The notes under the pieces: model-generated
The model's database searches: none
What the model saw: the letters and a program-made list of their open reading frames with translations, nothing else
Told to the model about the DNA's origin: nothing
In this document: positions 751 to 24,679 of the stretch, one piece after another
How positions within the stretch are numbered: the first letter of the stretch is position 1
Layout: the number at the start of each line of letters is the position of its first letter
Translations under genes and position numbers: made by a program
Assembly: GCF_963921805.1 (NCBI RefSeq)
Contig: NC_087541.1
Span: forward strand, 672,482-697,839
Direction: 5' to 3'
From: Phalacrocorax carbo
Taxonomy: Eukaryota
DNA: 25,358 nt

Positions 751-1466
751 ACGCTGTGACAACCCCCCCCCCCACCCCGTAGGGAGCCGCCGCTGATTGG
801 AGGATCCGCGAAGGGGCGGAGACGGCGCGGGGGGGCGGGGCGAGGGGAGACCACGCCCCCCCGGCTCCGCCCCCGCCTGGCAATGGGGTGAAACCCGGCG
901 AAAATGGGGGCGGGGGGGGAGGGGAGGGGCGAGGGGGGGGCGAGGAGGAGGAGGAGGAGGAGGAGGAGGGGGGGAGGAGGAGGAGGAGGAGGGGGGGGAG
1001 GAAGAGAGGCCGCTCCCGAAGAATGGGGTGAAAAAGGGCAAAAAAAAGGGCTGAGCCCCAAAAGGGGGAAAAAAACTGGGAGAAACGGGGCGAAACGGGG
1101 CGGGATCGAGAGCGAGGAGGGGGAGGGGGGGGAGGAGGAGGAGGAGGAAGAGCAGGAGGAGGAAGAAGGAGAGGAAAAAGGCACAAAGCGGCTCGTAAAA
1201 AATGGGGTGGAAAAGGGCAAAATCAAGACTGAGCCCAAGACAGGGAAAAAACTGCTCAAAAATGGGGTGAAAAGGGGCAAAATCGAGAGCGAGGAGGAGG
1301 AGGAGGACGAGAACAAGGATGAAGATCAGGAGGAGGAAGGAGACACAAAGCGGCTCGTAAAAAATGGGGTGAAAAAAGGGCAAAATAAAGACTGAACCCA
1401 AGAAGGACAAAAAGCCGCTCAAAAATAGGGCGAAAAGGGGCAGAATCGAGAGCGAGGAGGAGGAGG

Positions 1467-2201
1467 ATGAAGAGGAGGATGAAGAGGAGGAGGATGAGAT
1501 CAGGAGAAGGGAGGAGGATGAAGATCAGGAGGAGGAAGGAGACACGAAGCCGCTCGCAAAAATTGGGGCGAAAACAGGCCAAAAAAAGGACTGAGCCTGA
1601 GAAAAGCTCTGTGAGAAACGGGGCGAAAAGGGGCAAAATCGAGAGCGAGGAGGAGGAGGAGGAAGAGGAGGAGGAAGAAGAGGAAGAAAGCACAAAGCGG
1701 CTCGTAGAAATTGGGGGAAAAAAGGGCAAAATAAAGACTGAGGCCAAGAAGGAGAAAAAGCCGCTGAAAAATGGGGCGAAAAGGGGCAAAATCGAGAGCG
1801 AGGAGGAGGAGGAGGAGGAGGATGAAGAGGAAGAAGAGGTGAAGGACCCGCCCCGGAAAAACGGGGTGAAAAAGGGCAAAAAGAGGAGCGAGAAGAACCG
1901 AGCTGTGAAAAACGGGGCGAAAAGGGTGAAATTGGAGAGGGAGAAGAAGAGGAAGAGGAGGAGGAGGAGGAGGAAGAGGAGGAAGAGGAGGAGGAGGAAG
2001 GCGACGAGCCGGCACCGGCAAAACGGGCTCAGAAAGGGCAGAAACGGGCCGAGGAGGAGGAGGAGGAGCGGGCAGGGAGGAAGGCCGAGGCCGAAGAGCG
2101 CCCGGGGGGCGGGGAAGAGGAAGAGGAGCCGGGACTCGTCCTCCTCCTCCTCCTCCTCCTCTTCCTCGCTGGAGGAGGAAGAGCGGCGCCCCCCCCGCAA
2201 G
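1467..2201 (+). CDS. HIRIP3: HIRIP3-like large internal exon (3' part): K/E/S-rich repeats [21 protein letters not shown]..., poly-Ser ...SRDSSSSSSSSSSSLEEEERRPPRK, donor AAG|GTAACC at 2202
   Basis: open frame ending at a strong donor; the Ser run followed by an acidic stretch, and the KNGV motif, resemble the HIRIP3 central region; upstream copies (about 900-1460) switch frame at A-homopolymers, so the true 5' boundary is unknown. Confidence 0.45.
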
Positions 2202-2209
2202 GTAACCAG

Positions 2210-4650
2210 TGCGCCCAGTGAGGGGGGGTTTGGGGGGCACTGGGGGCGTTTGGGGGGGTCTCAGGGGGGGTTCGGGGGGTCTGAGGGGGCGTTTGGGGCG
2301 TCTGGGGGGGGTGAGGTGGGGGTTTGGGGGGTCTGAGGGGGCGTTTGGGGGGTCTGAGGGGGGGTTTGGGGGTCTGAGGGGGCGTTCGGGGGGTCTGAGG
2401 GGGGGTTCGGGGGGTCTGAGGGGGGGTTCGGGGGTCTGAGGGGGGTTCGGGGGGTCTGAGGGGGGTTCGGGGGTCTGAGGGGGGTTCGGGGGGTCTGAGG
2501 GGGCGTTTGGGGGGTCTGAGGGGGGGTTCGGGGGTCTGAGGGGGGGTTCGGGGGGTCTGAGGGGGCGTTTGGGGGGTCTGAGGGGGGGTTCGGGGGTCTG
2601 AGGGGGGGTTCGGGGGGTCTGAGGGGGCGTTTGGGGGGTCTGAGGGGGGGTTCGGGGGGTCTGAGGGGGTGTTTGGGGGTCTGAGGGGGCGTTTGGGGGG
2701 TCTGAGGGGGGGTTCGGGGGGTCTGAGGGGGGGTTCGGGGGGTCTGAGGGGGGGTTCGGGGGTCTGAGGGGGGGTTTGGGGGTCTGAGGCGGGGTTCGGG
2801 GGGTCTGAGGGGGCGTTCGGGGGGTCTGAGGTGGGGTTCGGGGGTCTGAGGGGGGGTTTGGGGGGTCTGAGGCGGGGTTCGGGGGTCTGAGGGGGGGTTT
2901 GGGGGGTCTGAGGGGGCGTTCGGGGGGTCTGAGGGGGGGTTGGGGGGGTCTGAGGGGGCGTTTGGGGGGTCTGAGGGGGGGTTCGGGGGGTCTGAGGGGG
3001 GTTTGGGGGTCTGAGGGGGCGTTTGGGGGGTCTGAGGGGGGGTTCGGGGGGTCTGAGGGGGGGTTCGGGGGGTCTGAGGGGGCGTTTGGGGGTCTGAGGT
3101 GGGGTTCGGGGGGTCTGGGGGGGGTTCGGGGGTCTGAGGGGGGTTCGGGGGGTCTCAGGGGGCGTTTGGGGGGTCTGGGGGGGGTGAGGTGGGGTTCGGG
3201 GGGTCTGAGGGGGGATTCAGGGGGTCTGAGGGGGCGTTTGGGGCGTCTGAGGGGGGGTTCGGGGGGTCTGAGGGGGCGTTTGGGGGGTCTAAGGGGGGGT
3301 TCGGGGGTCTGAGGGGGGGTTCGGGGGGTCTGAGGGGGGGTTTGGGGGGTCTGAGGGGGGGTTCGGGGGGTCTGAGGGGGGGTTTGGGGGTCTGAGGGGG
3401 CGTTTGGGGGGTCTGAGGGGGGGTTCGGGGGGTCTGAGGGGGGGTTCGGGGGGTCTGAGGGGGCGTTTGGGGGGTCTGAGGTGGGGTTCGGGGGGTCTGG
3501 GGGGGGTTCGGGGTCTGAGGGGGGGTTCGGGGGGTCTCAGGGGGCGTTTGGGGGGTCTGGGGGGGGTGAGGTGGGGTTCGGGGGGTCTGAGGGGGGATTC
3601 ATGGGGTCTGAGGGGGCGTTTGGGGCGTCTGAGGGGGGGTTCGGGGGGTCTGAGGGGCGTTTGGGGGGTCTGAGGGGGGGTGAGGGGGGTCTGAGGGGGG
3701 GTTTGGGGGTCTGAGGGGGGGTTCGGGGGGTCTGAGGGGGGATTCAGGGGGTCTGAGGGGGCGTTTGGGGGGTCTGAGGGGGCGTTGGGGGTCTGAGGGG
3801 GGGTTCGGGGGGTCTGAGGGGGGGTTCGGGGGGTCTGAGGGGGCGTTTGGGGGGTCTGAGGCGGGGTTCGGGGGTCTGAGGGGGGGTTCGGGGGGTCTGA
3901 GGGGGCGTTTGGGGGGTCTGAGGTGGGGTTCGGGGGGTCTGGGGGGGGTTCGGGGGTCTGAGGGGGGGTTCGGGGGGGTCTCAGGGGGCGTTTGGGGGGT
4001 CTGGGGGGGGTGAGGTGGGTTCGGGGGGTCTGAGGGGGGATTCAGGGGGTCTGAGGGGGCGTTTGGGGGGTCTGAGGGGGGTTCGGGGGGTCTGAGGGGG
4101 CGTTTGGGGGGTCTGAGGGGGGTTCGGGGGGTCTGAGGGGGGGGTTCGGGGGTCTGAGGGGGGGTTTGGGGGGTCTGAGGGGGGGTTCGGGGGGTCTGAG
4201 GGGGTGTTTGGGGGGTCTAAGGGGGGGTTCGGGGGTCTGAGGGGGGGTTCGGGGGGTCTGAGGGGGGGTTCGGGGGGTCTGAGGGGGGTTGGGGGGGTCT
4301 GAGGGGGGGTTCGGGGGGTCTGAGGGGGGGTTGGGGGGGTCTGAGGGGGGGGTTTGGGGGGTCTGAGGGGGGGTTCGGGGGGTCTGAGGGGGCGTTTGGG
4401 GGGTCTGAGGGGGCGTTTGGGGGGTCTGAGGGGGGGGTTCGGGGGGTCTGAGGGGGGGTTTGGGGGTCTGAGGGGGGGTTCGGGGGGTCTGAGAGGGGGT
4501 TCGGGGGGTCTGAGGGGGGGTTCGGGGGGTCTGAGGGGGGGTTCGGGGGGTTTGAGGGGGCGTTTGGGGGCTCTGAGGGGGGGTTCAGGGGGTCTGACAG
4601 GGGGTTCGGGGGGTCTCAGGGGCGTTTGGGGGGTCTCGGGGGGGGGTTGG
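2210..4650. repeat. 20-21-bp G-rich minisatellite (GGGGGGTCTGAGGGGGCGTTT / ..GGGGTTC), about 120 copies, filling the HIRIP3 intron
   Basis: visible tandem periodicity; G-runs of 5 or more in every unit. Confidence 0.9.
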
Positions 4651-4849
4651 GAGCAATTTAGGGGATCGCTGGGTATTTAGGAGGGTCTTTAATCCTGGGG
4701 GGGGCTCAGAAGGTGAATTTGGGGGGGCGGGAGGGGACTCGGGGGGGCAGGGGGGGACTCGGGGGGGGGGCACTGGGGGGCTGGGGGGGTATCGCGGGGC
4801 GGGGCCCCGCGGGTGCAGCCTCCCACGCCCCCCCCCCGCCCCCCCGCAG

Positions 4850-5016
4850 GTGTCGGGGCGCGGCGGGGGGGGACCCCCCGGCCCTGCGGCGCCTCAAGGG
4901 GTACCTGCGGGCCTGTGGGGCGCGCCCCAACTACAAGAAGCTCCTGGGGGGCTGCCGCAGCCTGCGCGAGAGGGTCGGGGTGCTGCGGGGGGAGCTGCGG
5001 GCCCTCGGCCTCACCG
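4850..5016 (+). CDS. HIRIP3: HIRIP3 exon: (R)CRGAAGGDPPALRRLKGYLRACGARPNYKKLLGGCRSLRERVGVLRGELRALGLT(G), C-terminal conserved HIRIP3 domain
   Basis: strong acceptor (CCTCCCACGCCCCCCCCCGCCCCCCCGCAG ending at 4849); matches human RLKRYxRACGxxRNYKKLLGSCCSHKERLSILRAELEALGMKG; first of five tandem copies of the G|GTGCGG donor at 5017; phase with neighbouring exons is off by 1 nt. Confidence 0.7.
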
Positions 5017-5340
5017 GTGCGGGGCGGGGGGCTGCGGTGGGGGGCTGCGGGGGGAGCTGCGGGCCCTCGGCCTCACCGGTGCGGGGCGGGGGGCTGCGGT
5101 GGGGGGCGGGAGGGGGGGCTGCGGGGCCCTCGGCCTCACCGGTGCGGGGCGGGGGGCTGCGGTGGGGGGCGGGAGGGGGGGCTGCGGGGGGAGCTGCGGG
5201 CCCTCGGCCTCACCGGTGCGGGGCGGGGGGCTGCGGTGGGGGGCGGGAGGGGGGCTGCGGGGGGAGCTGCGGGCCCTCGGCCTCACCGGTGCGGGGCGGG
5301 GGCTGCGGTGGGGGGGCTACGGTGGGGTGGGAGGGGGCTG
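4988..5340. repeat. 62-74-bp tandem repeat of the HIRIP3 exon 3' end plus splice donor (GGAGCTGCGGGCCCTCGGCCTCACCG|GTGCGGGGCGGGGGGCTGCGGTGGGG), 5 copies; a degenerate sixth copy (donor GT mutated to AT) lies at about 5690-5750
   Basis: direct sequence comparison. Confidence 0.85.
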
Positions 5341-6480
5341 CGGGGGCTGAGAGGGGGAACTTGGGGGGCTACGGTGAGTGGGAGGGGGGATGTGGGGGCT
5401 ACGAGGAGTGGGAGGGGGGATGTGGGGGGCTATGGGGGGTGGGAGGGGGGATATGGGGGACTACGAGGGGTGGGAGGGGGGACGTGGGGGGCTACGGCGG
5501 GTGGGAGGGGGGACGTGGGGGGCTGCGGCGTGTGGAAGGGGGAACTTGGGGGGCTACAGGGGGTGGGAGGGGGAATTTGTGGGGTGGGAGGGGGATTTTG
5601 GGGGGCTACAGGGGGTGGAGGGGGAATTTGTGGGGTGGGAGGGGGGATATGGGGGGCTACGGGGGGTGGGAGGAGGGATGTGGGGGGAGCTGCGGGCCCT
5701 CGGCCTCACCGATGCGGGGCGGGGGGCTGCGGGGGGCGGGAGGGGGGATGTGGGGGGTGACAGGGGGAACTTGGGGGGCTACAGGAAGTGGGAGGGGGGA
5801 TATGGGGGGCTACGGGGGGTGGGAGGGGGGATGTGGGGGGACTACGGGGGGTGGGAGGGGGGACGTGGGGGGCTGCGGCGTGTGGGAGGGGGAACTTGGG
5901 GGGCTACAGGGGGTGGAGGGGGAATTTGTGGCATGGGAGGGGGGCTGTGGGGGGCTACCAGATGTGGGAGGGGGGTTGTGGGGGGTGGGAGGGGGGGATA
6001 TGGGGGGTGGGAGGGGGACTTTGGGGGGGCTACAGGGGGTGGGAGGGGGGGATGTGGGGGTGGGAGGGGGGCTGTGGCAGGGGGCAATTTGGGAGGTGGG
6101 GAGGGAGGATATGGGGCCTACAGGGGGTGGGAGGGGGATTTTGGGGGGCTACAGGGGGTGGAGGGGGAATTTGTGGGGTGGGAGGGGGATTTTGGGGGGC
6201 TACCAGATGTGGGAGGGGGGTTGTGGGGGGTGGGAGAGGGGATATGGGGGGCTACGGGGGGGTGGGAGGGGGGGCTGCGGGGGGCAGGAGGGGACTTTCG
6301 GGTGTGGGAGGGGGCTGGGGGGGATTTGGGGGGTCATCGGGGGGTTTGGGGGGGTCTGCGGGGCGCAGGAGGGGGTTTTGGGGGGGATTTTGAGGGGTTG
6401 GAGGGGCGTTTTGGTGGGCAGGAGGGGGGATTTGGGGGGGCTGGGAGGGGGTTTGGGGGCGGCCTAGAGGGGTCGGGCGG
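5340..6480. repeat. about 30-bp G-rich minisatellite (GGCTACGGGGGGTGGGAGGGGGGATGTGGGG), about 35 copies
   Basis: visible periodicity. Confidence 0.85.
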
Positions 6481-6739
6481 GGTTGGGAGGGGGTTTGGGG
6501 TGCACTGGAGGGGTCACTGGGGGGGGTGGGGGGTCATTTTGGGGTACGGGGGGCATTTTGGGGGAGGGGGGGGGGCTGAAATGGCTTATTCCACACGCTC
6601 GGGGGCGGGGGGGGAGCGATTTGGAGGGGGGGGTCTGAGGGGGCGCTGAATGAGGCTGGGGGTGGGGGGGTGTGGGGGGGGTTACTGGGGGGGGGGTGTG
6701 GCTTTTTGGGGGTGCCTTTGACCCCTCCCCACCCCCCAG

Positions 6740-6839
6740 GACCCCCCCTCTTTGGCTCGCTGCCGGCGCCTCAAACGCCGCCGGGAAGAAGCGGCCGAGC
6801 TGGCGGCGCTCGACGTCGCCAACATCCTCCCCACGCCCG
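6740..6839 (+). CDS. HIRIP3: HIRIP3 exon: DPPSLARCRRLKRRREEAAELAALDVANILPTP(G)
   Basis: acceptor ...CCCCACCCCCCAG ending at 6739 (in-frame TGA at 6719 excludes upstream acceptors); donor G|GTAACG at 6840; matches human TPSLGKCRALKEQREEAAEVASLDVANII. Confidence 0.75.
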
Positions 6840-6975
6840 GTAACGACACCCCCCACCCCCCCCAAAAAAAACACCCCCCACCCCCCAAAAAAAACACCCC
6901 CCACCCCCCAAAAAAAAACACCCCCCAAAAAAACACCCCCCAAATCCTTACCCTCCCCCTGCTTTAAACCCACAG

Positions 6976-7113
6976 GTCGAACCCGGAGGCGAAACCCGTG
7001 GAACCCCCAAACCCCCCCCGGGGAGAAAATCGGGGGGTCCCCCCCCCCCTCCCCCCCCAGTCGACTGGTCCCGGCTTCGGGGCGTCATTAGCTCCGACGG
7101 CGAGAGCGAGTGA
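6976..7113 (+). CDS. HIRIP3: HIRIP3 terminal exon: (G)RTRRRNPWNPQTPPGE..[frame shift in poly-C]..DWSRLRGVISSDGESE stop (TGA 7111-7113)
   Basis: acceptor CCCACAG ending at 6975, in phase with the previous exon; matches human RPRRRTAWNP..PPGE and the C-terminus PDWSHMRGIISSDGESN; the two conserved blocks are in frames differing by 1 nt across the C11/C8 runs at 7039-7058. Confidence 0.7.
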   Translation, partial: VEPGGETRGTPKPPPGRKSGGPPPPPPPVDWSRLRGVISSDGESE

Positions 7114-7148
7114 CCCCCCCCCCCCCCCCCACCAACCCCCTCCCCAAA

Positions 7149-7154
7149 ATTAAA
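7149..7154 (+). terminator. ATTAAA polyadenylation signal 36 nt downstream of the HIRIP3 stop codon
   Basis: variant poly(A) hexamer in an AT-rich patch (7140-7200) directly after the TGA at 7111. Confidence 0.5.
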
Positions 7155-7260: not shown

Positions 7261-7445
7261 TTAATACTTGCGCTGGTGAAGAAAAAAACCGGGGGGTCTT
7301 TTTGGGGGGGGGGGGTCGTCTCCTTCCAGCTGGAAAAGGTCCCTCCCCGTCCGGAGAATCTGTTCTTCTAATTTTTTATGGCGTTTCATATCGGATAAAA
7401 CTTTATCGAGGCGCGCCTCCCGCTTCTGCCCGCGGCTGGGGGGGC
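7261..7445 (-). CDS. PAGR1: PAGR1 exon 3 (terminal): (G)[47 protein letters not shown]..[frame shift in C12 run]..LHQRKY stop
   Basis: acceptor CCTCCAG with phase matching exon 2; matches human [39 protein letters not shown]; the conserved C-terminal ...QRKY-stop is reached only in a frame shifted by one nt after the G12 run at +7306-7317; TAA is the complement of 7261-7263. Confidence 0.75.
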
Positions 7446-7554
7446 CTGGAGGGGGGGCACGGCGGGGTTGGAGGCGGCGCCGCCCAGGTTGGGGGTTTCC
7501 CGCCCAAAATGGGGGGGGGGGGTTGGGGAGGGGGTTTGGGGAGGGGGGCCTTAC

Positions 7555-7637
7555 CCGGGGCTCGGCGGCGGTCGATGAGGGAGCTCTTAGGGGCGACGGG
7601 CTCGTCGTCGAAGTCGAACTCGGTGGCGACGGGCGGC
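7555..7637 (-). CDS. PAGR1: PAGR1 exon 2: [28 protein letters not shown]
   Basis: acceptor CCTCCAG (complement of 7638-7644); donor G|GTAAGG (gt is the complement of 7554-7553); matches human [24 protein letters not shown]. Confidence 0.8.
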
Positions 7638-7805
7638 CTGGAGGGGGGAGAGGGGCCTTACCCGGGGGTCGGGGGCGGCGGGGGGCGGCGGGGGGCGGCG
7701 GGGGGCACCATCGGGAGGGGGGTCGCGAGGCGTGAGAGCTGCGGGGGGGGATTCTGGAAGTAAGGAAGCGCGAGGCGGGGAGTCGCGAGGTGGACGAGTC
7801 GTGGA

Positions 7806-9230
7806 GTGAGTGAACCGCCAGGGAGGTCGTCGAGCCGCGAGGGAAATGGCGACCTAAGCCGTGAGGTAAATCGCGAGGGAAATCGCGAGGGAAATCGCGA
7901 GGGAAATCGGGAGGGAAACGGCGAGGGAAATGGCGAGGGAAACGGCGAGGGAAATGGCGAGGGAAATCGGGAGGGAAACGGCGAGGGAAATCGGGAGGGA
8001 AACGGCGAGGGAAATGGCGAGGGAAATCGGGAGGGAAACGGCGAGGGAAACGGCGAGGGAAATGGCGACCTAAGCAGTGAGGTAAATCGCGAGCTAAGCC
8101 ATGAGATAAATCATGAGGTAAATCGCGAGCTAAGCCGTGAGGTAAATCGTGAGGCCGTGAGGTAAATTGTGAGGTAAATCATGAGGTAAATCGTGAGGCC
8201 GTGAGGTAAATTGTGAGGTAAATCATGAGGTAAATCGTGAGGCAAGTCGCGAGCTAAGCCGTGAGATAAATTGTGAAGTCAATCATGAGGTAAATCGCGA
8301 GCTAAGCCATGAGGTAAATTGTGAGGTAAATCGTGAGGTAAATTGTGAGGTAAATCATGAGGTAAATCGTGAGGCCGTGAGGTAAATTGTGAGGTAAATC
8401 ATGAGGTAAATCATGACGCAAGTCGCGAGCTAAGCCGTGAGATAAATTGTGAGGTCAATCATGAGGTAAATCGCGAGCTAAGCCGTGAGGTAAATCATGA
8501 GGTAAATCGCAACCTAAGCCATGAGGTAAATTGTGAGGTAAGCCGTGAGGTAAATTGTGAGGTACATCATGAGGTAAATCGTGAGGCCGTGAGGTAAATT
8601 GTGAGGTAAATCATGAGTTAAATCGTGAGGTAAATCGCGAGCTAAGCCGTGAGGTAAATTGTGAGGTAAATCGTGAGGTAAATCGCGAGCTAAGCCGTGA
8701 GGTAGACTGTGAGGTAAATCGTGAGTTAAATCGTGAGGTAAATCACGAGCTAAGCCGTGAGGTAAACTGTGAGGTAAATCGTGAGGTAAATCGCGACCTA
8801 AGCCATGAGGTAAACTGTGAGGTAAATCGTGAGGTAAATTGTGAGGTAAATCATGAGGTAAATCATGAGGCCGTGAGGTAAATCGTGAGGTAAATCGTGA
8901 GGTAAATCGTGAGGTAAATCGTGAGGTAAATCGTGAGGTAAAGCGTGAGGTAAAGCGTGAGGTAAAGCGTGAGCTAAGCCGTGAGATAAATTGTGAGGCA
9001 AATCATGAGGTAAATCGCAAGCTAAGCCGCGAGGTAAATTGTGAGGTACATCGCGAGCTAAGCTGTGAGGTAAATCGCGAGGTAAGCCGTGAGGTAAACT
9101 GTGAGGTAAGCCGTGAGATAAATTGTGAGATAAATCGTGAGCTAAGCCGTGAGCTAAGCCGTGAGGTAAATGGCGAGGTAAATGGCGACCTAAGCCGTGA
9201 GGTAAACAGCGAGGTAAAACGACAACATTT
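7806..9230. repeat. 12-bp minisatellite (CGAGGGAAATGG / GTGAGGTAAATC), about 118 copies, in PAGR1 intron 1; followed by an A-rich tract at 9235-9275
   Basis: visible periodicity; the unit is a multiple of 3, which explains the long REGNGEGN pseudo-ORF. Confidence 0.9.
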
Positions 9231-9308
9231 CCCCTAAAAAAAAAAACCACGCCAAAAAAAAAAAAAAAAAAAAAGGGTGGGTGGGATGTGGGGAATTTTT
9301 GTCTCTTA

Positions 9309-9669
9309 CTTCTCCTCCTCCTCCTCCTCGCTCTCGGGCTGCCCGGCCGAGCGCGGCTCCTCCTCGCTGTCGGGCTCCGGGGTGGGCGCGCGCCGGGGCA
9401 GCGGGACGTGCCGCAGCGGGAGGCTGCCCTGGTCGGCGATGAGCTCGTAGAGCCGCCGGATATCGGCGGGAGGGGGAAGCCATCCCTCGGGGGGTTCCCC
9501 TTCCTCCTCGCTCCAAGGAACCCCCCAGTCCTCCTCCTCTTCCTCGCCGAGGGGCGAGGGGGGCGGGCGGCGGGCGGCTCTCGCCGGCGCTGGCGGCCGG
9601 GGGGTCGGTGACGGCGAGGGAGCGGAGCCCCGACGTCACCTCCGACGCGTCCTCCGGCGGCGCCGTCAT
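9309..9669 (-). CDS. PAGR1: PAGR1 (PA1) exon 1: [22 protein letters not shown]...[78 protein letters not shown]
   Basis: reverse-strand translation matches human PAGR1 ([58 protein letters not shown]); ATG is the complement of 9667-9669; donor AAG|GTAAGA (gt is the complement of 9308-9307); an internal 1-nt frame inconsistency lies near 9540-9600. Confidence 0.78.
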
Positions 9670-9789: not shown

Positions 9790-10880
9790 TCCTGAGGTGG
9801 TGCTGCCGCCCTCAAGGCCACCGTTTTAATGTCTAAGGTGGTCCTGGTGACCCCCTTGGCCACCAAATTGAGCCCCCCAGGGCCACCCTGGTGTCCCCAC
9901 GGCTACCAAATTCTCCCTGTAGCCACCAAATTGAGCCCTGAGGCAATCTGACCACCTACAATGGCCACTGTTTTAAGGTCTAAGGTGGTCCTGGTGACCC
10001 CGTGGCCACCTAATTCAGCTTTGAGGTGATCCTTGTGGCCACCAAATTGAGCCCAAGGCCACCCCGGTGTCCCCACGGCTACCAAATTCTCCCTGTGGCC
10101 ACCAAATTGAGCCCTGAGGCAATCTGGCCACCTACAATGGCCACCGTTTTAAGGTCTAAGGTGGTCCTGGTGACCCTGTGGCCGCCAAATTGAGCCCTCA
10201 GGTCACCAAATTCTCCCTGTGGCCACCAAATTGAGCCCTGAGGCGATCAGCCACCTACAATGGCCACCGTTTTAAGGTCTAAGTTAGTCTTGGTGACCCC
10301 GTGGCCACCAAATTCAGCCCTGAGGTGATCCTTGTGGCCACCAAATTGAGCCCTCAGGCCACCAAATTGAGCCCTGAGGTGAACCCGATGACCCCGTGGC
10401 CACCAAGGTGAGCACTGAGGTGGTCCTGCTGCCCTCAAGGCCACCGATTTAAGGTCTAAGGTGGTCCTGGTGTCCCCGTGGCCACCAAATTCAGCCCCGA
10501 GGCCACCAAATTGAAGCCTGAGGCGATCGGGCCACCTACAATGGCCACCGTTTTAAGGTCTAAGGTGGTCCTGGTGACCCCGTGGCCACCTAATTCAGCT
10601 TTGAGGTGATCCCTGTGGCCACCAAATTGAGCCCCGAGGTGGTCCTGGTGACCCCGTGGCCACCAAATCGAGCCCCAAGGCCACCCCAGTGTCCCCGTGG
10701 CCACCAAGGTGGGTCCTGAAGTGGTCCTGCCACCTCAAGGCCACCATTTAAAGGTCTAACGTGGTCCTGGTGTCCCCATGGCCACCAAATTGAGGCCTGA
10801 GGCCACCAAATTGTCCCTGTGGCCACCAAGTTGAGCCCTGAGGCGATCGGGCCACCTACAATGGCCGCCATTTTAACGCC
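9790..10880. repeat. complex higher-order satellite (about 270-bp units built from GGCCACCAAATTGAGCCCTGAGG and CTACAATGGCCACCGTTTTAAGGTCTAAGGTGGTCCTGGTGACC), about 4 copies
   Basis: repeated blocks visible at 9960, 10130, 10250, 10530 and 10850. Confidence 0.75.
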
Positions 10881-10899
10881 TGAGGTGATCCCGCCAGCC

Positions 10900-11360
10900 C
10901 TGAGCCCCCCCCCACCCCCCCGGCCGCCATCTTGGGTCCCGGCGCCGCCATTTTGAACCCCGACGCCGCCCCCCCTCCCCCTCCCAAACCCCGCCCCCGC
11001 CATTTCCAGCCCGTCACGCACCCCCAGCCCCCCCCCCCCCGCACCCCCCGCACCCGCTACCCCCGCACCGCCCCCCCCCCGCGTCCCCTCCCCGCACTCA
11101 CCCTCCTCGGGCTCCCCCGGGACCGGCGAGGTCAGGGACGGGACCCTCAGCCCCCGCCCGCCATTTTTTCTTCCCGCTCCCGCCTTCCACCGGCTCCCGA
11201 CTGCGCATGCGCGGGGGGAGCAACACGCTTGCGCAGGGCGGCGCCGGTGTGGTGTGCGCATGCGCGGCGCCGGAAGACTCCGCGGTCCCGCCCCTTTGCC
11301 CACGTGTTTGTGCGAGGCCGCACCCTCTTCCGCCCACGGCGCATGCGCGGGGGGAGGAAG
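10900..11360. promoter_or_regulatory. CpG-island promoter module: two YY1 consensus sites (GCCGCCATCTTG 10923-10934, GCCGCCATTTT 10944-10954) plus three perfect NRF1 palindromes GCGCATGCGC (11213-11222, 11266-11275, 11339-11348)
   Basis: exact matches to established YY1 and NRF1 consensus motifs; lies 1.2-1.7 kb upstream of the PAGR1 ATG on the minus strand. Confidence 0.55.
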
Positions 11361-11629
11361 TCGGTGTGTAACCGTTAATTAAGATGGATATTTTTTGCTT
11401 TATTGCTCTGAAATCCAAGCGAATGGGCCCAAAATTAGGGTGGGGGGACGGTCGGGGGCCTCTCCTCGGTGGGCGCGGCCCTTAAAGAGGTAAAAGGCGT
11501 GGGTGGGGCCTGCCTTAAAGGGGACGTCCGTGCCCCAACCGTAATAAAAATGAATAATTCATAAGTAAAAGAAATCAAGTAGTGTCTAAATAAAGTAATT
11601 AATGAGCCCGGGTGGAAGAAAGCTCGGGA

Positions 11630-11870
11630 GGAGGTGGCCCCACCTTATCGCCGCTTTAAGAGATGGTGTTGCCTCTTTAGAGAACGGGTGGGCCCCACCT
11701 TATCGCCGCTTTAAGAGATGGTGTTGCCTCTTTAGAGAACGGGTGGGCCCCACCTTATCGCCGCTTTAAGAGATGGTGTTGCCTCTTTAGAGAACGGGTG
11801 GGCCCCACCTTATCGCCGCTTTAAGGTACGGCGCTGCCCCTTTAAGAGGAGGCGGGCCCGCCGTGTCGCC
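11630..11870. repeat. 57-bp x4 tandem repeat (GGGTGGGCCCCACCTTATCGCCGCTTTAAGAGATGGTGTTGCCTCTTTAGAGAAC) inside an AT-rich island
   Basis: four near-identical copies. Confidence 0.85.
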
Positions 11871-11879
11871 GCTTTAAGG

Positions 11880-12760
11880 CCGCCCCGCCCCGCCCCGCCC
11901 CGCACTGATTGGCTCACTTGGTGTAACAGACGCAGGCGCCGCCAATCAGAGGGAGGAGAAGGAGGAGCGTGGCCAAGGTGGTTCTGCCGCCAGCCAATTG
12001 CCGGCTGGGACCTGCACGCTGCGCCACTGGGCGGCCAATCGGAAAGAGGGGCGGGAGGGCGAGGTCAGGGGAGCGGGAGAACCCCGAACACCCGCCCCGG
12101 GACCCCCTCATGGGCCTGCCCTAAGCCACGCCCACAGAGGGGCTTGGTCCCGCCCACAGAAGTTTGGCCCGCCCCTTCACGTGGCCCCGCCCCGTTGTGG
12201 CCCCGCCCCGCCTGCCAGTGGCCACGCCCATCGCCCTCTAGACCCCACCCACCGCAATGCAGACCGCACCCACAGCCCCTAGACCCCGCCCCTTTCTGCA
12301 CCCCGCCCTCCATTAAAAGGCTGCCTGGTTTTGGCCCCGCCCACAACCCTCAGACCCCGCCCCTTCGCCCAGACACCGTCCAGGTTTTAACCCCGCCCCT
12401 TCCCCGGAAGCCCCGCCCCCAGCCGGGCTCTGGAAGCGGCGAGGAGGGGCGGGGCGTTGCCAAGGGGATGGGGCCCCGCCGACCAATCGCCGCTCGGGCA
12501 GGCACCGGCTCCACCCCCTCCCCTTCAGAATCAGCCAATCGGCTGCGCGTTGGGGGCGGCGCTACGGTCACGTGGGCGGCGCGGGGCCGCTCTAGGCCGC
12601 TGGAGGAACGCGGCTCTATGGTCTGCGGGGCTCCACAGCGCTCCCCCATCCCCCCACCTCCCGCCTCAGCCGCCCCCCACCGCGTCGGCTCAGCAGGGAC
12701 GTCACGGGAGGAGGCGGTGACGTCACGGGGGACGTCACCCTCCCCCCCCCCCAGCCGATG
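11880..12760. promoter_or_regulatory. TATA-less promoter-type block: CCAAT boxes at 11907, 11942, 11994, 12035, 12483 and 12536; about 15 Sp1 GC boxes (CCCCGCCCC, 11881-12420); E-box CACGTG; three tandem CRE/ATF half or full sites (GGGACGTCAC / GTGACGTCAC / GGGACGTCAC, 12697-12740)
   Basis: direct motif matches; orientation and position are consistent with TAOK2 upstream and 5'UTR control and/or divergent transcription with PAGR1. Confidence 0.5.
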
Positions 12761-12799: not shown

Positions 12800-13260
12800 C
12801 CCCGCCGCGGCCGCCGCCATTTTTCGCCCTCTCTCAGGAGCCGCTTCCCGCCATTCCCTCCCTTCTCCCCCTGCCCCCGCTCGGCGCATGCGCCGCCCCG
12901 ATCCTGGCCCCGGCAACAGCGCCGCCGCCCAATCCCCGCCCGCCCTGCCCGCGCCGCCCCGCCCCCTCCCGCCCCCTCAGCGCTCCAGCCAATCGCCCGC
13001 TTCCTTCCCCACCGGCTCGCGCGCCCATTGGCCGAGATCACCCGCCCCGCGCACGCCCCGCCCACCTCCTGGCGGGCCCGCCCGCCCTGTGCCTTCACCC
13101 GCCGCCGATCTGCGCATGCGCGGAAGGGGGTCGGGGGCGCGGCGCGCATGCGCCGCAGGGCCCGCTCGGGCTGCCACTTCCGGTCCGGCCGCCAGCGCCA
13201 TCTTAGATCCGGGGGCTCCCCCACCCCCTTCCCCGGGGGCTCCCCCCGCTCGCCGCCGCC
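12800..13260. promoter_or_regulatory. second NRF1/YY1 module: GCGCATGCGC at 12884-12893, 13112-13121 and 13144-13153; YY1-like GCCGCCATTTTT (12811-12822) and CGCCATCTTAG (13193); CCAAT at 12989 and 13027
   Basis: motif matches; candidate TSS region for a non-coding first exon of TAOK2 (possible donor CCG|GTGAGG near 13446). Confidence 0.4.
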
Positions 13261-13479
13261 GCCGCTTTGGGGTTAAAGCCCGGCTTTTTGGGTATCCCGG
13301 AGCCGCCCCTCCCCCCCCTCCCGGGAAGGAGGGATTCGGGGGGAGGTGGGGGCCCCCCCCCGGAGCTGGAGCCGCCCGGGGGGGGGGGGCGGACGAGGGG
13401 GGCTGGGCGACCCCCGCGGCCCGACGGAGCCGGAGCCGGAGCCGGTGAGGGGCGACCGGGGGCTTGGGGGGGGCCAGGG

Positions 13480-15500
13480 CCGGCGGCACTTGGGGGGCAG
13501 CGGCACTTGGGGGGCAGAGCCGGGGCCCTTGGGGCACTTGGGGCTCGGTAGGACTTGGGGGGCAGAGCCGGGGCCCTTGGGGCACTTGGGGCTCGGTAGG
13601 ACTTGGGGGGCAGAGCCGGGGCCCTTGGGGCACTTGGGGGTCGGTAGGACTTGGGGGGCAGAGCCGGGGTACTTGGGGCTCGGTAGGACTTGGGGGGCAG
13701 AGCCGGGGCCCTTGGGGCACTTGGGGCAGTTTAGGACTTGGGGGGCAGAGCCGGGGCCCTTGGGGCACTTGGGGCTCGGTAGGACTTGGGGGGCAGAGCC
13801 GGGGCCCTTGGGGCACTTGGGGCTCGGTAGGACTTGGGGGGCAGAGCCGGGGCCCTTGGGGCACTTGGGGGTCGGTAGGACTTGGGGGGCAGAGCCGGGG
13901 CCCTTGGGGCACTGGTGGGGCAGACTCTGGGTCTCTTGGGGGGCAACGCTTGGGTCACTTATGGGATCTGTGGGGCACTTGGGGGGGGACCCTGGGGCAA
14001 CTGTGGGGCAGAGCCTAGATCTTAAGTTCTCTTTAGCACTTGTGCTAAAGCACTTGGGGGGCAGCGCTTGGGTCTCTTGGGGGGCAGCGCTTGGGTCTCT
14101 TGTGGGATCTGTGGGGCAGAGCGTGGGGCACTTGGGGGGGCCCCATGGTCCCTTTTGGGAGAGAGCCTGAACCTTGGTCACTTGTGGGGCAGAGCCGGGG
14201 GCACTTGGGGGGCAGCAAGGCTTGTGGGGCAGAGCCTGGACCTTGAGTTCTCTTTAGCACTTGTGGGGCGGAGCGTGGGGCACTTGTGGGGCAGCGGGGC
14301 TTGGGGGGAGGGCCTGGACCCCAGGGACTCTTGTGGGGCAGCGCTTGGGTCGCTTGTGGATTCTGTGGGGCAGAATGTGGGTCACTTGGGGGGCAGAGCC
14401 TGAACCTCTGGAGCACTTGTGGGGCAGGGTGTGGGTCCCTTGGGGGCAGCGTGTGGGTCTCTTGTGGGGCAGTGCTTGGGTAGCTTGTGGGATCTGTGGG
14501 ACCGAGTGTGGGTCACTTGGGGGGCAGAGCCTGGGGCCCTGGGTCACATGTGGGGCAGGGTGTGGGTCACGTGTGGGGCAGGGCCTGTACCCTTGGGTCA
14601 GTTGTGGGGCAGGGCGTGGGTCACTTGGGGGGCAGAGCCTGTACCCCTGGGTCAGTTGTGGGGCAGGGCGTGGGTCACTTGGGGGGCAGAGCCTGTACCC
14701 CTGGGTCAGTTGTGGGGCAGGGCGTGGGTCACGTGTGGGGCAGAGCCTGAACCTTGTGTCACGTGTGGGGCAGGGCGTGGGTCACGTGTGGGGCAGGGCC
14801 TGAACCTTGGGTCACTTGTGGGGCAGGGTGTGGGTCACGTGTGGGATCTGTGGGGCTGAGTGTGGGTCACTTGGGGGGCAGAGCCTGGGGCCTTGGGTCA
14901 CTTGGGGGTCAGAGCCTGGTTCAGTTGTGGGGCAGGGTGTGGGTCACGTGTGGGGCAGAGCCTGTATCCCTGGGTCAGTTGTGGGGCAGAGCCTGCTTCA
15001 GTTGTGGGGCAGGGCCTGTATCCCTGGGTCACTTGGGGGGCAGAGCCTGCTTCAGTTGTGGGGCAGGGCCTGTATCCCTGGGTCACTTGGGGGGCAGAGC
15101 CTGCTTCAGTTGTGGGGCAGAGCCTGTATCCCTGGGTCACTTGGGGGGCAGAGCCTGGTTCAGTTGTGGGGCAGGGCGTGGGTCCCTTGTGGGGCAGAGC
15201 CCGAACCTTGGGTCACTTGGGGGGCAGGGCCTGGGTCACTTGGGGGGCAGAGCCTGCTTCAGTTGTGGGGCAGGGCATGGGTCACGTGTGGGGCAGAGCC
15301 CGAACCTTGGGTCACTTGGGGGGCAGGGCCTGGTTCAGTTGTGGGGCAGGGTGTGGGTCACGTGTGGGGCAGAGCCCGAACCTTGGGTCACTTGGGGGGC
15401 AGGGCCTGGTTCAGTTGTGGGGCAGGGCGTGGGTCACGTGTGGGGCAGAGCCCGAACCTTGGGTCACTTGGGGGGCAGGGCGTGGGTCACGTGTGGGGCA
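13480..15500. repeat. about 60-bp minisatellite family (CTTGGGGCACTTGGGGCTCGGTAGGACTTGGGGGGCAGAGCCGGGGCC, then GGGTCACGTGTGGGGCAGAGCCTGAACCTTGGGTCACTTGTGGGGCAGGGCGTG), about 30 copies
   Basis: visible periodicity. Confidence 0.85.
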
Positions 15501-15638
15501 GAGCCTGCACCCAAGCCACCCCCCCCGCCAGCAGCAGCACTCGGGTGACCCGTGGGGCCCCCCTGCGCCCCGTGGGGCAGCCCTGGCTGACGCGCGGCTC
15601 TGCCCCACGGCCGCTGTGGGGCGGGGGCAGGCGCCGCC

Positions 15639-15758
15639 ATGCCCTGGGGACGCCCGCGGGGCCCCCCCGGGGCCGGGCTCTTCCTGCAGGGGGACCCCGA
15701 GCGGCTCTTCGGGGACCTGCGCGAGATCGGCCACGGCAGCTTCGGCGCCGTCTACTTC
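15639..15758 (+). CDS. TAOK2: TAOK2 coding exon 1: start codon in gccgccATGc Kozak context, [40 protein letters not shown], kinase subdomain I (Gly loop)
   Basis: ATG at 15639; translation matches the TAO kinase N-terminus ([22 protein letters not shown] in human); phase-0 donor GTGAGT at 15759. Confidence 0.88.
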
Positions 15759-24610: not shown

Positions 24611-24679
24611 CCCCTGGAGCTCTGGGGGATCCCCGTGTCCCCCCCCGTGACCCCCCTGACCCCCCCCCCCCACTGGCAG

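What the first reader, a model, noticed from the sequence alone, without database searches (positions are those of the whole stretch)
11380..11880. Isolated AT-rich island with a 57-bp x4 repeat inside the CpG island
In a window of about 78% GC, the sequence at 11380-11620 drops to about 35-40% GC (TAATTAAGATGGATATTTTTTGCTTTATTGC..., GTAATAAAAATGAATAATTCATAAGTAAAAGAAATCAAG). AATAAA hexamers occur on both strands: plus at 11543 and 11594; minus, as TTTATT, at 11399. A perfect 57-bp x4 tandem repeat follows, each unit with a GATA motif (CTTATC), GGCCCCACC and GCTTTAAGAG. The CTTTAAG/CTTAAAG motif recurs about nine times between 11490 and 11880. This may be a remnant transposable element or retro-insertion, the 3' end of an unrecognised transcript, or a small-RNA or insulator-like element embedded in the promoter region.
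Basis: seen in the sequence. Interest (0 to 1): 0.5.

Follow-up and report, generated by a model that had tools for sequence, protein, structure and literature searches.

The report
Leftover 3' end of lost SEZ6L2
The AT-rich patch and its short tandem repeat are the decayed tail end (one exon, intron repeats, 3' untranslated region and poly(A) signal) of the brain gene SEZ6L2, left stranded between the PAGR1 and TAOK2 promoters of a bird microchromosome after the rest of the gene was lost; it is a gene fossil, not a transposon, a small-RNA gene or a promoter element.

Summary
The repeat period is 55 bp, not 57. The AT-rich part is two short blocks, not one island. The window is 70.7% GC, not 78%.

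The window is bird DNA. PAGR1 lies on the minus strand, with its promoter at about 11100-11350. TAOK2 lies on the plus strand, from about 13250.

Read on the minus strand, 12026-11399 is collinear with the 3' end of SEZ6L2 in ostrich, alligator and turtle. In those species SEZ6L2 sits tail-to-head upstream of PAGR1. The window keeps these pieces:
- the transmembrane exon, degraded;
- the CTTAAAG-motif array of the following intron, part of it recently re-expanded as the 55-bp repeat;
- the AT-rich 3'UTR block;
- two CCCTTTAAG motifs;
- the conserved block CCATTCGCTTGGATTTCAGAGCAATAAA, which carries the poly(A) signal.

The CUB/Sushi exons and the last two coding exons are absent. A 2026 survey lists SEZ6L2 as missing in Galliformes and Anseriformes and reports that no pseudogene traces of lost genes were seen. 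This relic would be such a trace.

It is most likely a largely neutral fossil. Its poly(A) signals may still stop transcription between the two promoters. Interest is low to moderate.

A side observation is more intriguing: arrays of yCCCTTTAAGr inside SEZ6L2 are conserved in turtle, alligator and ostrich.

The parts
11918..12026 (-). Degraded homologue of the SEZ6L2 transmembrane exon. The acceptor AG is at 12028-12027 and the donor GTGAGC at 11917-11912. The 'CCAAT boxes' seen at 11908-12039 lie inside and beside this exon.
   Evidence: blastn to ostrich L002 7635-7827 gives 67% identity over 193 nt. tblastn with the ostrich exon peptide gives E=3e-8 against the whole window. The frame is open but has a 9-nt deletion. 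Only 13 of the 25 residues invariant in ostrich, turtle, anole and alligator are kept, and IYVYY has become ACVCY.
11636..11878 (-). CTTAAAG-motif array (as read on the minus strand) derived from the intron that follows the transmembrane exon. It includes the perfect 55-bp x 3.45 tandem tract at 11636-11825.
   Evidence: TRF and the repeat finder. The ostrich intron has CGTCTTAAAGCGGCGATGAGG against the window's TCTCTTAAAGCGGCGATAAGG. Alligator and turtle carry 4-6 TCTTAAAGGG motifs in the same intron.
11607..11627 (-). Short block (CCGAGCTTTCTTCCACCCGGG) matching the ostrich 3'UTR just upstream of its AT-rich block. It marks the downstream edge of a deletion that removed the last two coding exons and the first part of the 3'UTR.
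   Evidence: Alignment A3: ostrich CGAGCTTCTCCCCACCG against window CGAGCTTTCTTCCACCCG. The two missing exons (FQGKSLFGF...NNPLYEAG and DTREYEVSI*) are not found by tblastn at word size 2.
11540..11606 (-). AT-rich block (27% GC over 11540-11612), a remnant of the ATTTA/TTTATTT-rich block of the SEZ6L2 3'UTR. Its reverse complement supplies the plus-strand AATAAA hexamers at 11543 and 11589.
   Evidence: It holds the same position as the AT-rich blocks of ostrich (L002 8530-8575), alligator (L003 7940-7995) and turtle (L009 21320-21385): after the stop codon and before the CCCTTTAAG array. Composition.
11481..11520 (-). Two CCCTTTAAG-type motifs as read on the minus strand (plus-strand CTTAAAG at 11481 and 11514). 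They are what remains of the 3'UTR motif array.
   Evidence: The 3'UTR array has 5 copies in ostrich, 9 in alligator and 7 in the same orientation in turtle, always between the AT-rich block and the distal poly(A) signal.
11399..11426 (-). Conserved block next to the poly(A) signal, CCATTCGCTTGGATTTCAGAGCAATAAA. The AATAAA hexamer is at 11404-11399 on the minus strand. Cleavage is expected about 10-30 nt further on, near 11390-11370.
   Evidence: Identity is 24/28 to turtle and 24/29 to ostrich. The 9-mer GAGCAATAA occurs exactly once in each SEZ6L2 locus (ostrich, alligator, turtle, anole), always on the sense strand in the distal 3'UTR. It occurs once in the window and nowhere else in 287 kb of fetched DNA, both strands.
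11543..11594 (+). Two plus-strand AATAAA hexamers (11543-11548 and 11589-11594). They are by-products of the AT-rich block and lie about 350-450 nt upstream of the inferred PAGR1 start region.
   Evidence: The same antisense AATAAA runs exist in the AT-rich blocks of the intact orthologues.
11102..11348 (-). Context: the PAGR1 CpG-island promoter and non-coding first exon. It has three NRF1-type GCGCATGCGC sites (11203, 11256, 11339), a YY1-type AAAATGGCGG and a donor GTGAGT at 11101-11096. The relic's poly(A) signal abuts it.
   Evidence: Motif positions. Aligned to the ostrich PAGR1 promoter (window 11221-11150 to L002 9543-9611, 75%). Cuckoo and alligator have the same layout.
7261..9669 (-). 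Context: PAGR1 coding exons at 9669-9310, 7637-7555 and 7445-7261.
   Evidence: Pfam PAXIP1_C, E=6.7e-41. Best protein hits are bird PAGR1 at 81-85% identity. Exon reading.
13250..15758 (+). Context: the 5' end of TAOK2. The non-coding exon ends at 13444 (donor GT at 13445). The first coding exon is 15639-15758 ([40 protein letters not shown]).
   Evidence: Collinear with the cuckoo 1238-aa Pkinase gene. tblastn E=2e-15. Pfam Pkinase E=1.4e-22 on the joined exons.

Best explanation
The island is a gene fossil: the 3' terminal part of SEZ6L2, read on the minus strand.

In the archosaur ancestor SEZ6L2 ended a few hundred bases upstream of the PAGR1 promoter, as it still does in ostrich and alligator. 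In the lineage of this bird the body of SEZ6L2 was lost, and TAOK2 now lies head-to-head with PAGR1. A second, roughly 600-bp deletion removed the last two coding exons.

What remains is:
- a decaying transmembrane exon;
- the intron's CTTAAAG-motif minisatellite;
- the AT-rich 3'UTR block;
- two CCCTTTAAG motifs;
- the poly(A)-signal block.

The low GC is therefore inherited from a 3'UTR. The 55-bp x 3.45 perfect repeat is a recent local tandem re-expansion of the old intron minisatellite. This is the same kind of expansion that covers about 70% of this window.

Shown: the homology, collinearity and orientation of the pieces; the absence of the other exons from the window; and the decay of the exon.

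Inferred: the relic is now mostly neutral. Its single minus-strand AATAAA may still end transcripts running from the TAOK2 CpG island toward PAGR1. The plus-strand AATAAAs may end upstream-antisense transcripts from the PAGR1 promoter.
For: - Gene context. PAGR1 is on the minus strand. TAOK2 is on the plus strand.
- Ancestral arrangement. Ostrich and alligator have SEZ6L2 followed by PAGR1 on the same strand.
- Collinear anchors, all on the minus strand and in the same order as in ostrich: transmembrane exon (12039-11865 to L002 7635-7827), intron motif CTTAAAGCGGCGATAAGG, pre-AT block, AT-rich block, CCCTTTAAG motifs, poly(A) block (11434-11399 to L002 8967-9002, 81%), then the PAGR1 promoter.
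- The poly(A) block is 24/28 identical to turtle, and its core 9-mer is unique to the orthologous site in every locus.
- Alligator and turtle show the same exon, intron-array, two-exon, AT-block, 3'UTR-array, GAGCAATAA layout.
- Only the transmembrane exon of SEZ6L2 is detectable in the window. It has lost 12 of 25 otherwise invariant residues.
- Cuckoo shares the TAOK2-PAGR1 adjacency and keeps only the CTTAAAG array.
- Among 175 SEZ6L2-family hits the only bird SEZ6L2 orthologue is ostrich.
- Hron et al. 2026 list SEZ6L2 as missing in Galliformes and Anseriformes.
- 69.5% of the window is tandem repeat.
Against: - The homologous blocks are short (20-190 nt). The AT-rich block is assigned mainly by position plus an adjacent block of about 20 nt.
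- I could not search the rest of the source genome, so an intact SEZ6L2 elsewhere, or upstream exons beyond TAOK2, cannot be excluded.
- The source species is not known. That it is a galliform or anseriform is inferred only from PAGR1 being at most 85% identical to any annotated bird protein.
- Hron et al. mark SEZ6L2 as not missing in Neoaves, yet the cuckoo locus lacks it. The history of loss is therefore more complicated than a single event.
- The poly(A) block is as well conserved as between species with an intact gene. That fits continued use as well as it fits pure neutrality.
- No expression data were available.
Confidence: 0.85

Rival explanations
1. Exapted terminator or buffer. The relic is kept because its poly(A) signals on both strands stop divergent or upstream-antisense transcription between the TAOK2 and PAGR1 CpG-island promoters and so prevent interference. 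This is compatible with the fossil origin. The question is whether there is present-day function.
For: - The only minus-strand AATAAA in 25 kb sits about 50 nt before the first NRF1 site of the PAGR1 promoter. The two plus-strand AATAAAs lie about 350-450 nt upstream of the PAGR1 start region.
- YY1-type motifs reading on the minus strand lie at 12816 and 13197 inside the TAOK2 CpG island, and one lies at the equivalent cuckoo position. These suggest minus-strand initiation toward the relic.
- The poly(A) block is 24/28 identical to turtle even though the coding exons are lost.
- Termination of promoter-upstream transcripts by nearby poly(A) signals is established biology (my knowledge; not retrieved here).
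Against: - Cuckoo has the same promoter pair but has lost the AT-rich block and the poly(A) block.
- Sparrow has no relic at all.
- There are no transcript data.
- Conservation of 28 nt is weak evidence.
Confidence: 0.3
2. The yCCCTTTAAGr motifs are binding sites for a DNA- or RNA-binding protein. The array persists, and was re-expanded here, because it regulates neighbouring genes independently of SEZ6L2.
For: - 51 motif instances in turtle, alligator, ostrich and cuckoo share an 11-mer, yCCCTTTAAGr, with flanks of about 0 bits.
- Arrays lie at three fixed places in SEZ6L2 in turtle, alligator and ostrich.
- Cuckoo retains 5 exact CTTAAAG copies plus near-variants (about 10 units in all), although every other SEZ6L2 trace is gone.
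- The window has 8 exact copies against 0.4 expected.
Against: - No known factor was identified. A literature search for the motif found only primers.
- Sparrow and anole lack the arrays.
- Tandem duplication alone explains the uniform orientation and the recent copies.
- The 7-mer core was used to pick the instances, so only the flanking positions are informative.
Confidence: 0.2
3. The exon at 12026-11918 and the region down to the poly(A) signal are still the working 3' end of a live SEZ6L2, or of a new gene whose upstream exons lie outside the window. In that case the transmembrane exon would be spliced to a new short terminal exon (acceptor near 11481; reading ...YTK-AAPTEERPPTVPPP*).
For: - The exon frame is open, and both its splice sites are intact.
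- A polypyrimidine tract plus AG lies at 11495-11481. Splicing there gives an in-frame stop at 11438-11436, followed by the poly(A) signal (read).
Against: - No other SEZ6L2 exon lies within the 13 kb upstream, which is occupied by TAOK2 on the other strand.
- The universally conserved C-terminus, NPLYEAGDTREYEVSI, is missing.
- 12 of 25 invariant residues in the exon have been lost.
- SEZ6L2 is reported missing in Galliformes and Anseriformes.
Confidence: 0.05
4. A remnant transposable element or retro-insertion, or a small-RNA gene, embedded in the promoter region. These are the first reader's other options.
For: The region has AT-rich sequence with AATAAA on both strands next to a tandem repeat, and inverted 7-mers.
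Against: - The same pieces lie at the orthologous position in ostrich, alligator and turtle as part of a gene's intron and 3'UTR. It is therefore ancestral sequence, not an insertion.
- The relic keeps intron sequence, so it is not a processed copy.
- No Rfam family matches at gathering score, and nothing scores better than E=2 at a relaxed threshold.
- There is no tRNA nearby.
- No other copy exists in the window.
Confidence: 0.03

Closest known systems
3' end of intact SEZ6L2 in ostrich (L002/L008), alligator (L003) and turtle (L009)
   Same: The order and strand of the parts are the same: transmembrane exon, CTTAAAG-motif intron array, AT-rich 3'UTR block, CCCTTTAAG 3'UTR array, then the block CCATT(C/T)GCTT..ATTT..GAGCAATAAA. 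In archosaurs this lies directly upstream of the NRF1-rich PAGR1 promoter.
   Different: The window lacks all CUB/Sushi exons, the exon before the transmembrane exon and the last two coding exons. The transmembrane exon is degraded. The 3'UTR array is reduced to 2 motifs. Part of the intron array is a young, perfect 55-bp tandem.
Unitary pseudogene or relic of a lost gene in conserved synteny
   Same: It is a fragment of an ancestral gene left at its original position after gene loss, and it shows relaxed constraint on the coding part.
   Different: Only the 3' terminal part survives. It lies on a repeat-dense avian microchromosome, where a recent survey (Hron et al. 2026, PMC12954441) reports having met no pseudogenes left by lost genes.
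'Sequence stuttering': local tandem expansions in introns of genes on chicken dot chromosomes (Hron et al. 2026)
   Same: A unit of tens of bases is expanded locally and is derived from the sequence already present at that spot. The window as a whole is 69.5% tandem repeat.
   Different: Here the expanded sequence lies in the intron of a dead gene, so it is now intergenic. The array is small (3.45 perfect copies). Length polymorphism among individuals could not be tested.
Termination of promoter-upstream or divergent transcripts by nearby poly(A) signals (from my own knowledge of the mammalian literature; not retrieved here)
   Same: Canonical AATAAA hexamers lie on both strands within a few hundred bases of two CpG-island promoters.
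   Different: There is no evidence of use here. The signals are inherited from a 3'UTR and did not evolve at a promoter.
Dense clusters of one transcription-factor motif dedicated to one gene, such as ZNF410 sites at CHD4 (recalled from memory; a lead only)
   Same: Many copies of one roughly 11-nt motif are concentrated at one locus, with unconserved spacers.
   Different: The motif differs (CATCCCATAATA for ZNF410, against yCCCTTTAAGr here). No binding factor is known, and no test was possible.

Membership tests
Functional SEZ6L2 gene | CUB and Sushi domain exons upstream of the transmembrane exon | tested here: not met
   tblastn of all ostrich SEZ6L2-region ORF pieces against the window hits only the transmembrane exon. 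Intact orthologues carry CUB and Sushi.
Functional SEZ6L2 gene | Transmembrane exon with the conserved ...GGIYVYYT(K/R) end | tested here: inconclusive
   The homologue is present with an open frame and both splice sites. However, 12 of 25 invariant residues are lost, there is a 3-codon deletion, and IYVYY has become ACVCY.
Functional SEZ6L2 gene | Last two coding exons (FQGKSLFGF...NNPLYEAG and DTREYEVSI*) | tested here: not met
   Not found by tblastn at word size 2 and E up to 1000 in 11200-12600, or at E up to 10 in the whole window. They are present in ostrich, alligator, turtle and anole.
Functional SEZ6L2 gene | Distal 3'UTR block ...GAGCAATAAA carrying the poly(A) signal | tested here: met
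   Window minus strand 11426-11399, 24/28 identical to turtle. The 9-mer is unique to the orthologous site in all loci.
Processed pseudogene or retro-insertion | Intron-less cDNA copy with a poly(A) tail and target-site duplications at a non-syntenic site | tested here: not met
   The relic keeps intron sequence (the CTTAAAG array and splice sites). It lies at the ancestral syntenic position upstream of PAGR1.
Transposable element remnant | Homology to a TE family, with dispersed copies | not testable with these tools
   No RepeatMasker/Dfam and no host genome were available. There is no second copy in the window, and the sequence is orthologous to a gene's intron and 3'UTR in three other species.
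Small-RNA gene (Rfam families, tRNA) | Match to a covariance model at gathering score | tested here: not met
   No hit at gathering score in the window. The best relaxed hits have E=2. ARAGORN finds nothing near the region.
Sequence stuttering (Hron et al. 2026) | Locally expanded, roughly tandem blocks of tens to hundreds of bases, of local origin, in a repeat-dense dot-chromosome setting | tested here: met
   55-bp unit, 3.45 perfect plus about 1 degenerate copies. The unit derives from the ancestral intron motif. 69.5% of the window is tandem repeat. Definition read.
Sequence stuttering (Hron et al. 2026) | Array length varies among individuals | not testable with these tools
   This needs long-read population data from the source species.
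Sequence stuttering (Hron et al. 2026) | Lies inside an intron of a retained gene | tested here: not met
   The host gene is a relic, so the array is now intergenic between TAOK2 and PAGR1.

The most novel reading that the evidence does not exclude
The yCCCTTTAAGr arrays are an old cis-acting module bound by an unidentified DNA- or RNA-binding protein. They have been shared since the turtle-archosaur ancestor and sit at three fixed places in SEZ6L2. The module has outlived the gene in this bird and in cuckoo because it also serves the neighbouring PAGR1/TAOK2 promoters. Together with the retained poly(A) block, the 'fossil' would then be a working boundary element between the two promoters.
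Probability: 0.15. Interest if true: 0.6.

Novelty: new member of a known kind. Interest (0 to 1): 0.3.

Why it matters
The finding explains an odd AT-rich patch in a CpG-rich promoter region as the tail of a lost gene, so no new kind of element needs to be invoked.

It has some value for the debate on 'missing' avian genes. SEZ6L2 is listed as absent from Galliformes and Anseriformes. [quoted passage not shown] Here a trace survives at the ancestral position, and it fixes the position of one deletion edge, in the intron upstream of the transmembrane exon.

It also shows that the point just upstream of the PAGR1 promoter is a recurrent rearrangement site. The upstream neighbour is SEZ6L2 in ostrich and alligator, TAOK2 in this bird and cuckoo, and VKORC1 in a sparrow.

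The conserved CCCTTTAAG arrays in SEZ6L2 are an unexplained side observation that could be followed up experimentally.

Tried and rejected
- Rfam at gathering score on the whole window, and at a relaxed threshold on 10800-12600: nothing credible.
- ARAGORN: one dubious 94-nt 'tRNA' far away, inside a tandem repeat.
- A 96-aa SEZ6L2 C-terminal query returned only short fragments, because candidate retrieval favours proteins of similar length. That search was wasted.
- Stork PAGR1 and opossum SEZ6L2 were not on record.
- The penguin contig is a run of N upstream of PAGR1.
- The turtle and lizard PAGR1 loci do not have SEZ6L2 next door and so gave no comparison.
- Two metagenome scans, for the 55-bp unit and for the poly(A) block, found nothing.
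- I tested whether the intron array and the reverse-complementary 3'UTR array pair in the pre-mRNA. Folding z-scores were -1.5, -3.4 and -1.0, and only 1 of 12 intron motifs paired with a 3'UTR motif in the minimum-energy structures. I dropped the idea. I also dropped the 'uniform orientation' argument, because tandem duplication explains it.
- A literature search for the motif gave only primer sequences.
- Pfam on the long ORFs between PAGR1 and TAOK2 found nothing, so there is no hidden gene there.
- From memory I considered YY1, SRF/CArG, TCF/LEF, TBP, nuclear-receptor half-sites and STAR-protein UWAA sites for the motif. None fits well enough to claim.
Full report
**1. What is in the sequence**

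The region holds a tandem repeat with a 55-bp unit. Three exact full copies start at 11636, 11691 and 11746. The perfectly periodic tract is 11636-11825, and degenerate units run on to 11878.

The 'AT island' is two short blocks. 11380-11440 is 38% GC and 11540-11612 is 27% GC. A 69% GC spacer separates them, and 11380-11620 is 47% GC overall. The window as a whole is 70.7% GC, not 78%.

AATAAA lies on the plus strand at 11543 and 11589. TTTATT at 11399 is the only minus-strand AATAAA in the 25 kb.

CTTTAAG (6 copies) and CTTAAAG (2 copies) occur only here in the window. About 0.2 of each is expected from base composition.

**2. Where the window comes from and what surrounds the island**

On the minus strand there is a three-exon gene at 9669-9310, 7637-7555 and 7445-7261. 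Its product is PAGR1: Pfam PAXIP1_C at E=6.7e-41, and the best database hits are bird PAGR1 at 81-85% identity.

The window is collinear with a cuckoo locus in which a 1238-aa protein-kinase gene lies head-to-head with PAGR1. The window's first coding exon of that gene is 15639-15758 on the plus strand, and the joined exons match Pkinase. From my knowledge of the human sequence, the exon peptides read as TAOK2.

The PAGR1 promoter is the CpG-rich stretch 11100-11350. It has three GCGCATGCGC sites, a YY1-type motif and a splice donor at 11101. It aligns to the ostrich PAGR1 promoter.

The island therefore sits between two divergent promoters and directly abuts the PAGR1 promoter. Tandem repeats cover 69.5% of the window. 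This matches the description of avian 'dot' chromosomes.

**3. What the island is**

In ostrich and alligator the gene immediately upstream of PAGR1, on the same strand, is SEZ6L2, which carries CUB and Sushi domains.

Reading their 3' ends, and that of a turtle SEZ6L2, gives one common layout, in this order:
- a transmembrane exon ending ...GGIYVYYT(K/R);
- an intron with 3-6 TCTTAAAGGG motifs;
- two small coding exons (FQGKSLFGF...NNPLYEAG and DTREYEVSI*);
- a 3'UTR with an ATTTA/TTTATTT-rich block;
- an array of 5-9 CCCTTTAAG motifs, the reverse complement of the intron motif;
- a distal poly(A) signal inside the block CCATT(C/T)GCTT..ATTT..GAGCAATAAA;
- in the archosaurs, the NRF1-rich PAGR1 promoter.

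The window's minus strand shows the same parts in the same order.
- *Transmembrane exon.* 12039-11865 aligns to the ostrich transmembrane exon and its flanks at 67% over 193 nt. tblastn gives E=3e-8. The 'CCAAT boxes' just right of the island are inside and beside this exon.
- *Intron array.* 11878-11636 is the intron array. The window's TCTCTTAAAGCGGCGATAAGG matches ostrich CGTCTTAAAGCGGCGATGAGG.
- *Pre-AT block.* 11627-11607 matches the ostrich 3'UTR just before its AT-rich block.
- *AT-rich block.* 11606-11540.
- *3'UTR motifs.* Two CCCTTTAAG-type motifs follow, at 11520 and 11487.
- *Poly(A) block.* 11426-11399 is CCATTCGCTTGGATTTCAGAGCAATAAA. It is 24/28 identical to turtle and 24/29 to ostrich.

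The 9-mer GAGCAATAA occurs once in each SEZ6L2 locus (ostrich, alligator, turtle, anole). It is always on the sense strand in the distal 3'UTR. It occurs once in the window at the expected place, and nowhere else in 287 kb, both strands.

**4. It is a relic, not a live gene end**

Only the transmembrane exon of SEZ6L2 can be found in the window. The CUB/Sushi exons, the exon before the transmembrane exon and the last two coding exons are absent. The space where they would lie is occupied by the TAOK2 CpG island and the TAOK2 gene.

Comparison with ostrich indicates an internal deletion of roughly 600 bp. It runs from the intron array to the 3'UTR and removed the two terminal coding exons.

The surviving exon has an open frame and intact splice sites. 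However, it has lost 12 of the 25 residues that are invariant in ostrich, turtle, anole and alligator, including IYVYY changed to ACVCY, and it has a three-codon deletion.

Three further observations fit loss of the gene:
- Cuckoo has the same TAOK2-PAGR1 adjacency and keeps only the CTTAAAG array: 5 exact copies plus near-variants, about 10 units in all.
- Among 175 hits to a reconstructed alligator SEZ6L2, the only bird SEZ6L2 orthologue is ostrich.
- Hron et al. 2026 list SEZ6L2 (expected on chicken chr38) as missing in Galliformes and Anseriformes. [quoted passage not shown]

No annotated bird PAGR1 is more than 85% identical to the window's. From this I infer, without proof, that the source is a galliform or anseriform.

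**5. The 55-bp repeat**

Alligator, turtle and ostrich arrays have spacings of about 50-60 bp, and only the motif is conserved between units. They are therefore old, degenerate minisatellites.

The window's three identical units are a young re-expansion of that intron array. This is the same type of local expansion that Hron et al. call sequence stuttering.

**6. How it works now**

The best-supported reading is that the region is largely neutral. Its AT-richness and its AATAAA hexamers on both strands are inherited from a 3'UTR.

A present role as a transcription stop between the two promoters is plausible:
- It holds the only minus-strand AATAAA in 25 kb, and that hexamer is placed just before the PAGR1 promoter.
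- YY1-type motifs oriented toward the relic lie in the TAOK2 CpG island.
- The poly(A) block is well kept.

This role is untested, and cuckoo and sparrow do without these blocks.

**7. Side observation**

The motif yCCCTTTAAGr forms arrays at three fixed places in SEZ6L2 of turtle, alligator and ostrich:
- a 5' intron, which in ostrich holds 42 motif copies (30 of them a regular 52-bp array), in the sense orientation;
- the intron after the transmembrane exon, in the antisense orientation;
- the 3'UTR, in the sense orientation.

The arrays are absent from the anole gene.

Across 51 instances in four species only the 11-mer carries information. Pairing between the arrays in the pre-mRNA is not supported by folding. 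I found no known factor for the motif.

**8. Verdict**

The 'unrecognised 3' end' option is the nearest to the truth. The transposon, retro-insertion and small-RNA options are not supported.

The feature is a new instance of a known kind, a relic of a lost gene. It is of modest interest as a counter-example to the reported lack of such relics on avian dot chromosomes.

Noticed in passing
L008 12528-14565 (ostrich), L003 3592-3857, 7143-7305 and 8039-8457 (alligator), L009 9637-10261, 17873-18040 and 21845-22341 (turtle): Arrays of the 11-mer yCCCTTTAAGr lie at three fixed places inside SEZ6L2: a 5' intron, the intron after the transmembrane exon (opposite orientation) and the 3'UTR. They are conserved in turtle, alligator and ostrich, with unconserved spacers. 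The ostrich 5' intron holds 42 motif copies, 30 of them a regular 52-bp array. The arrays are absent from the anole gene. Their function is unknown.
   Followed up: partly
window about 9585-9535 (minus strand): PAGR1 exon 1 changes reading frame inside a C-rich run. The conserved N-terminus ([20 protein letters not shown]...) and the conserved remainder (...[11 protein letters not shown]...) are in different frames. This is either a homopolymer error in the assembly or a real frameshift.
   Followed up: partly
window 9857-10891; L001 9640-9990; L003 9620-9960: The 5'UTR intron of PAGR1 is filled with a tandem array. In the window the units are about 21, 41 or 300 bp (GGCCACCAAATTGAGCCC... with GCCACCGTTTTAAGG). 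The units resemble the YY1-type GCCGCCATTTT/AAGATGGCGGC motif of the first exon. Cuckoo and alligator have comparable arrays at the same place.
   Followed up: no
window 7860-9218: About 115 copies of a 12-bp unit, CGTGAGGTAAAT, fill the PAGR1 intron after coding exon 1. This region is 45% GC, the lowest in the window.
   Followed up: no
upstream of the PAGR1 promoter: window about 11400, L001, L002, L003, L004, L007: The gene upstream of PAGR1 differs between species. It is SEZ6L2 (same strand) in ostrich and alligator, TAOK2 (head-to-head) in this window and in cuckoo, VKORC1 (head-to-head, about 120 bp away) in a sparrow, and KIF22 in a wall lizard. The spot looks like a recurrent rearrangement point.
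   Followed up: partly
window 904-7150 (plus strand): A Glu/Lys-rich gene converges on PAGR1. Its last exons align to the unnamed minus-strand gene next to PAGR1 in cuckoo, ostrich and alligator (probably HIRIP3, judged by synteny with INO80E in alligator). Its ATTAAA at 7149 is probably its poly(A) signal. Its introns are almost entirely G-rich tandem repeats.
   Followed up: no
window 24371-24464: ARAGORN calls a 94-nt tRNA-Arg(CCT) inside a 10/31-bp tandem repeat (23777-24617), within TAOK2. It is almost certainly a false positive.
   Followed up: no
window 12700-12740 and 12816-12826: A second promoter-like cluster lies between the relic and the TAOK2 first exon. It has three CRE-type (TGACGTCA/CGTCA) sites, CCAAT boxes, an NRF1 site at 12884 and a YY1-type motif reading on the minus strand. 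It could drive a minus-strand transcript that runs through the relic.
   Followed up: no
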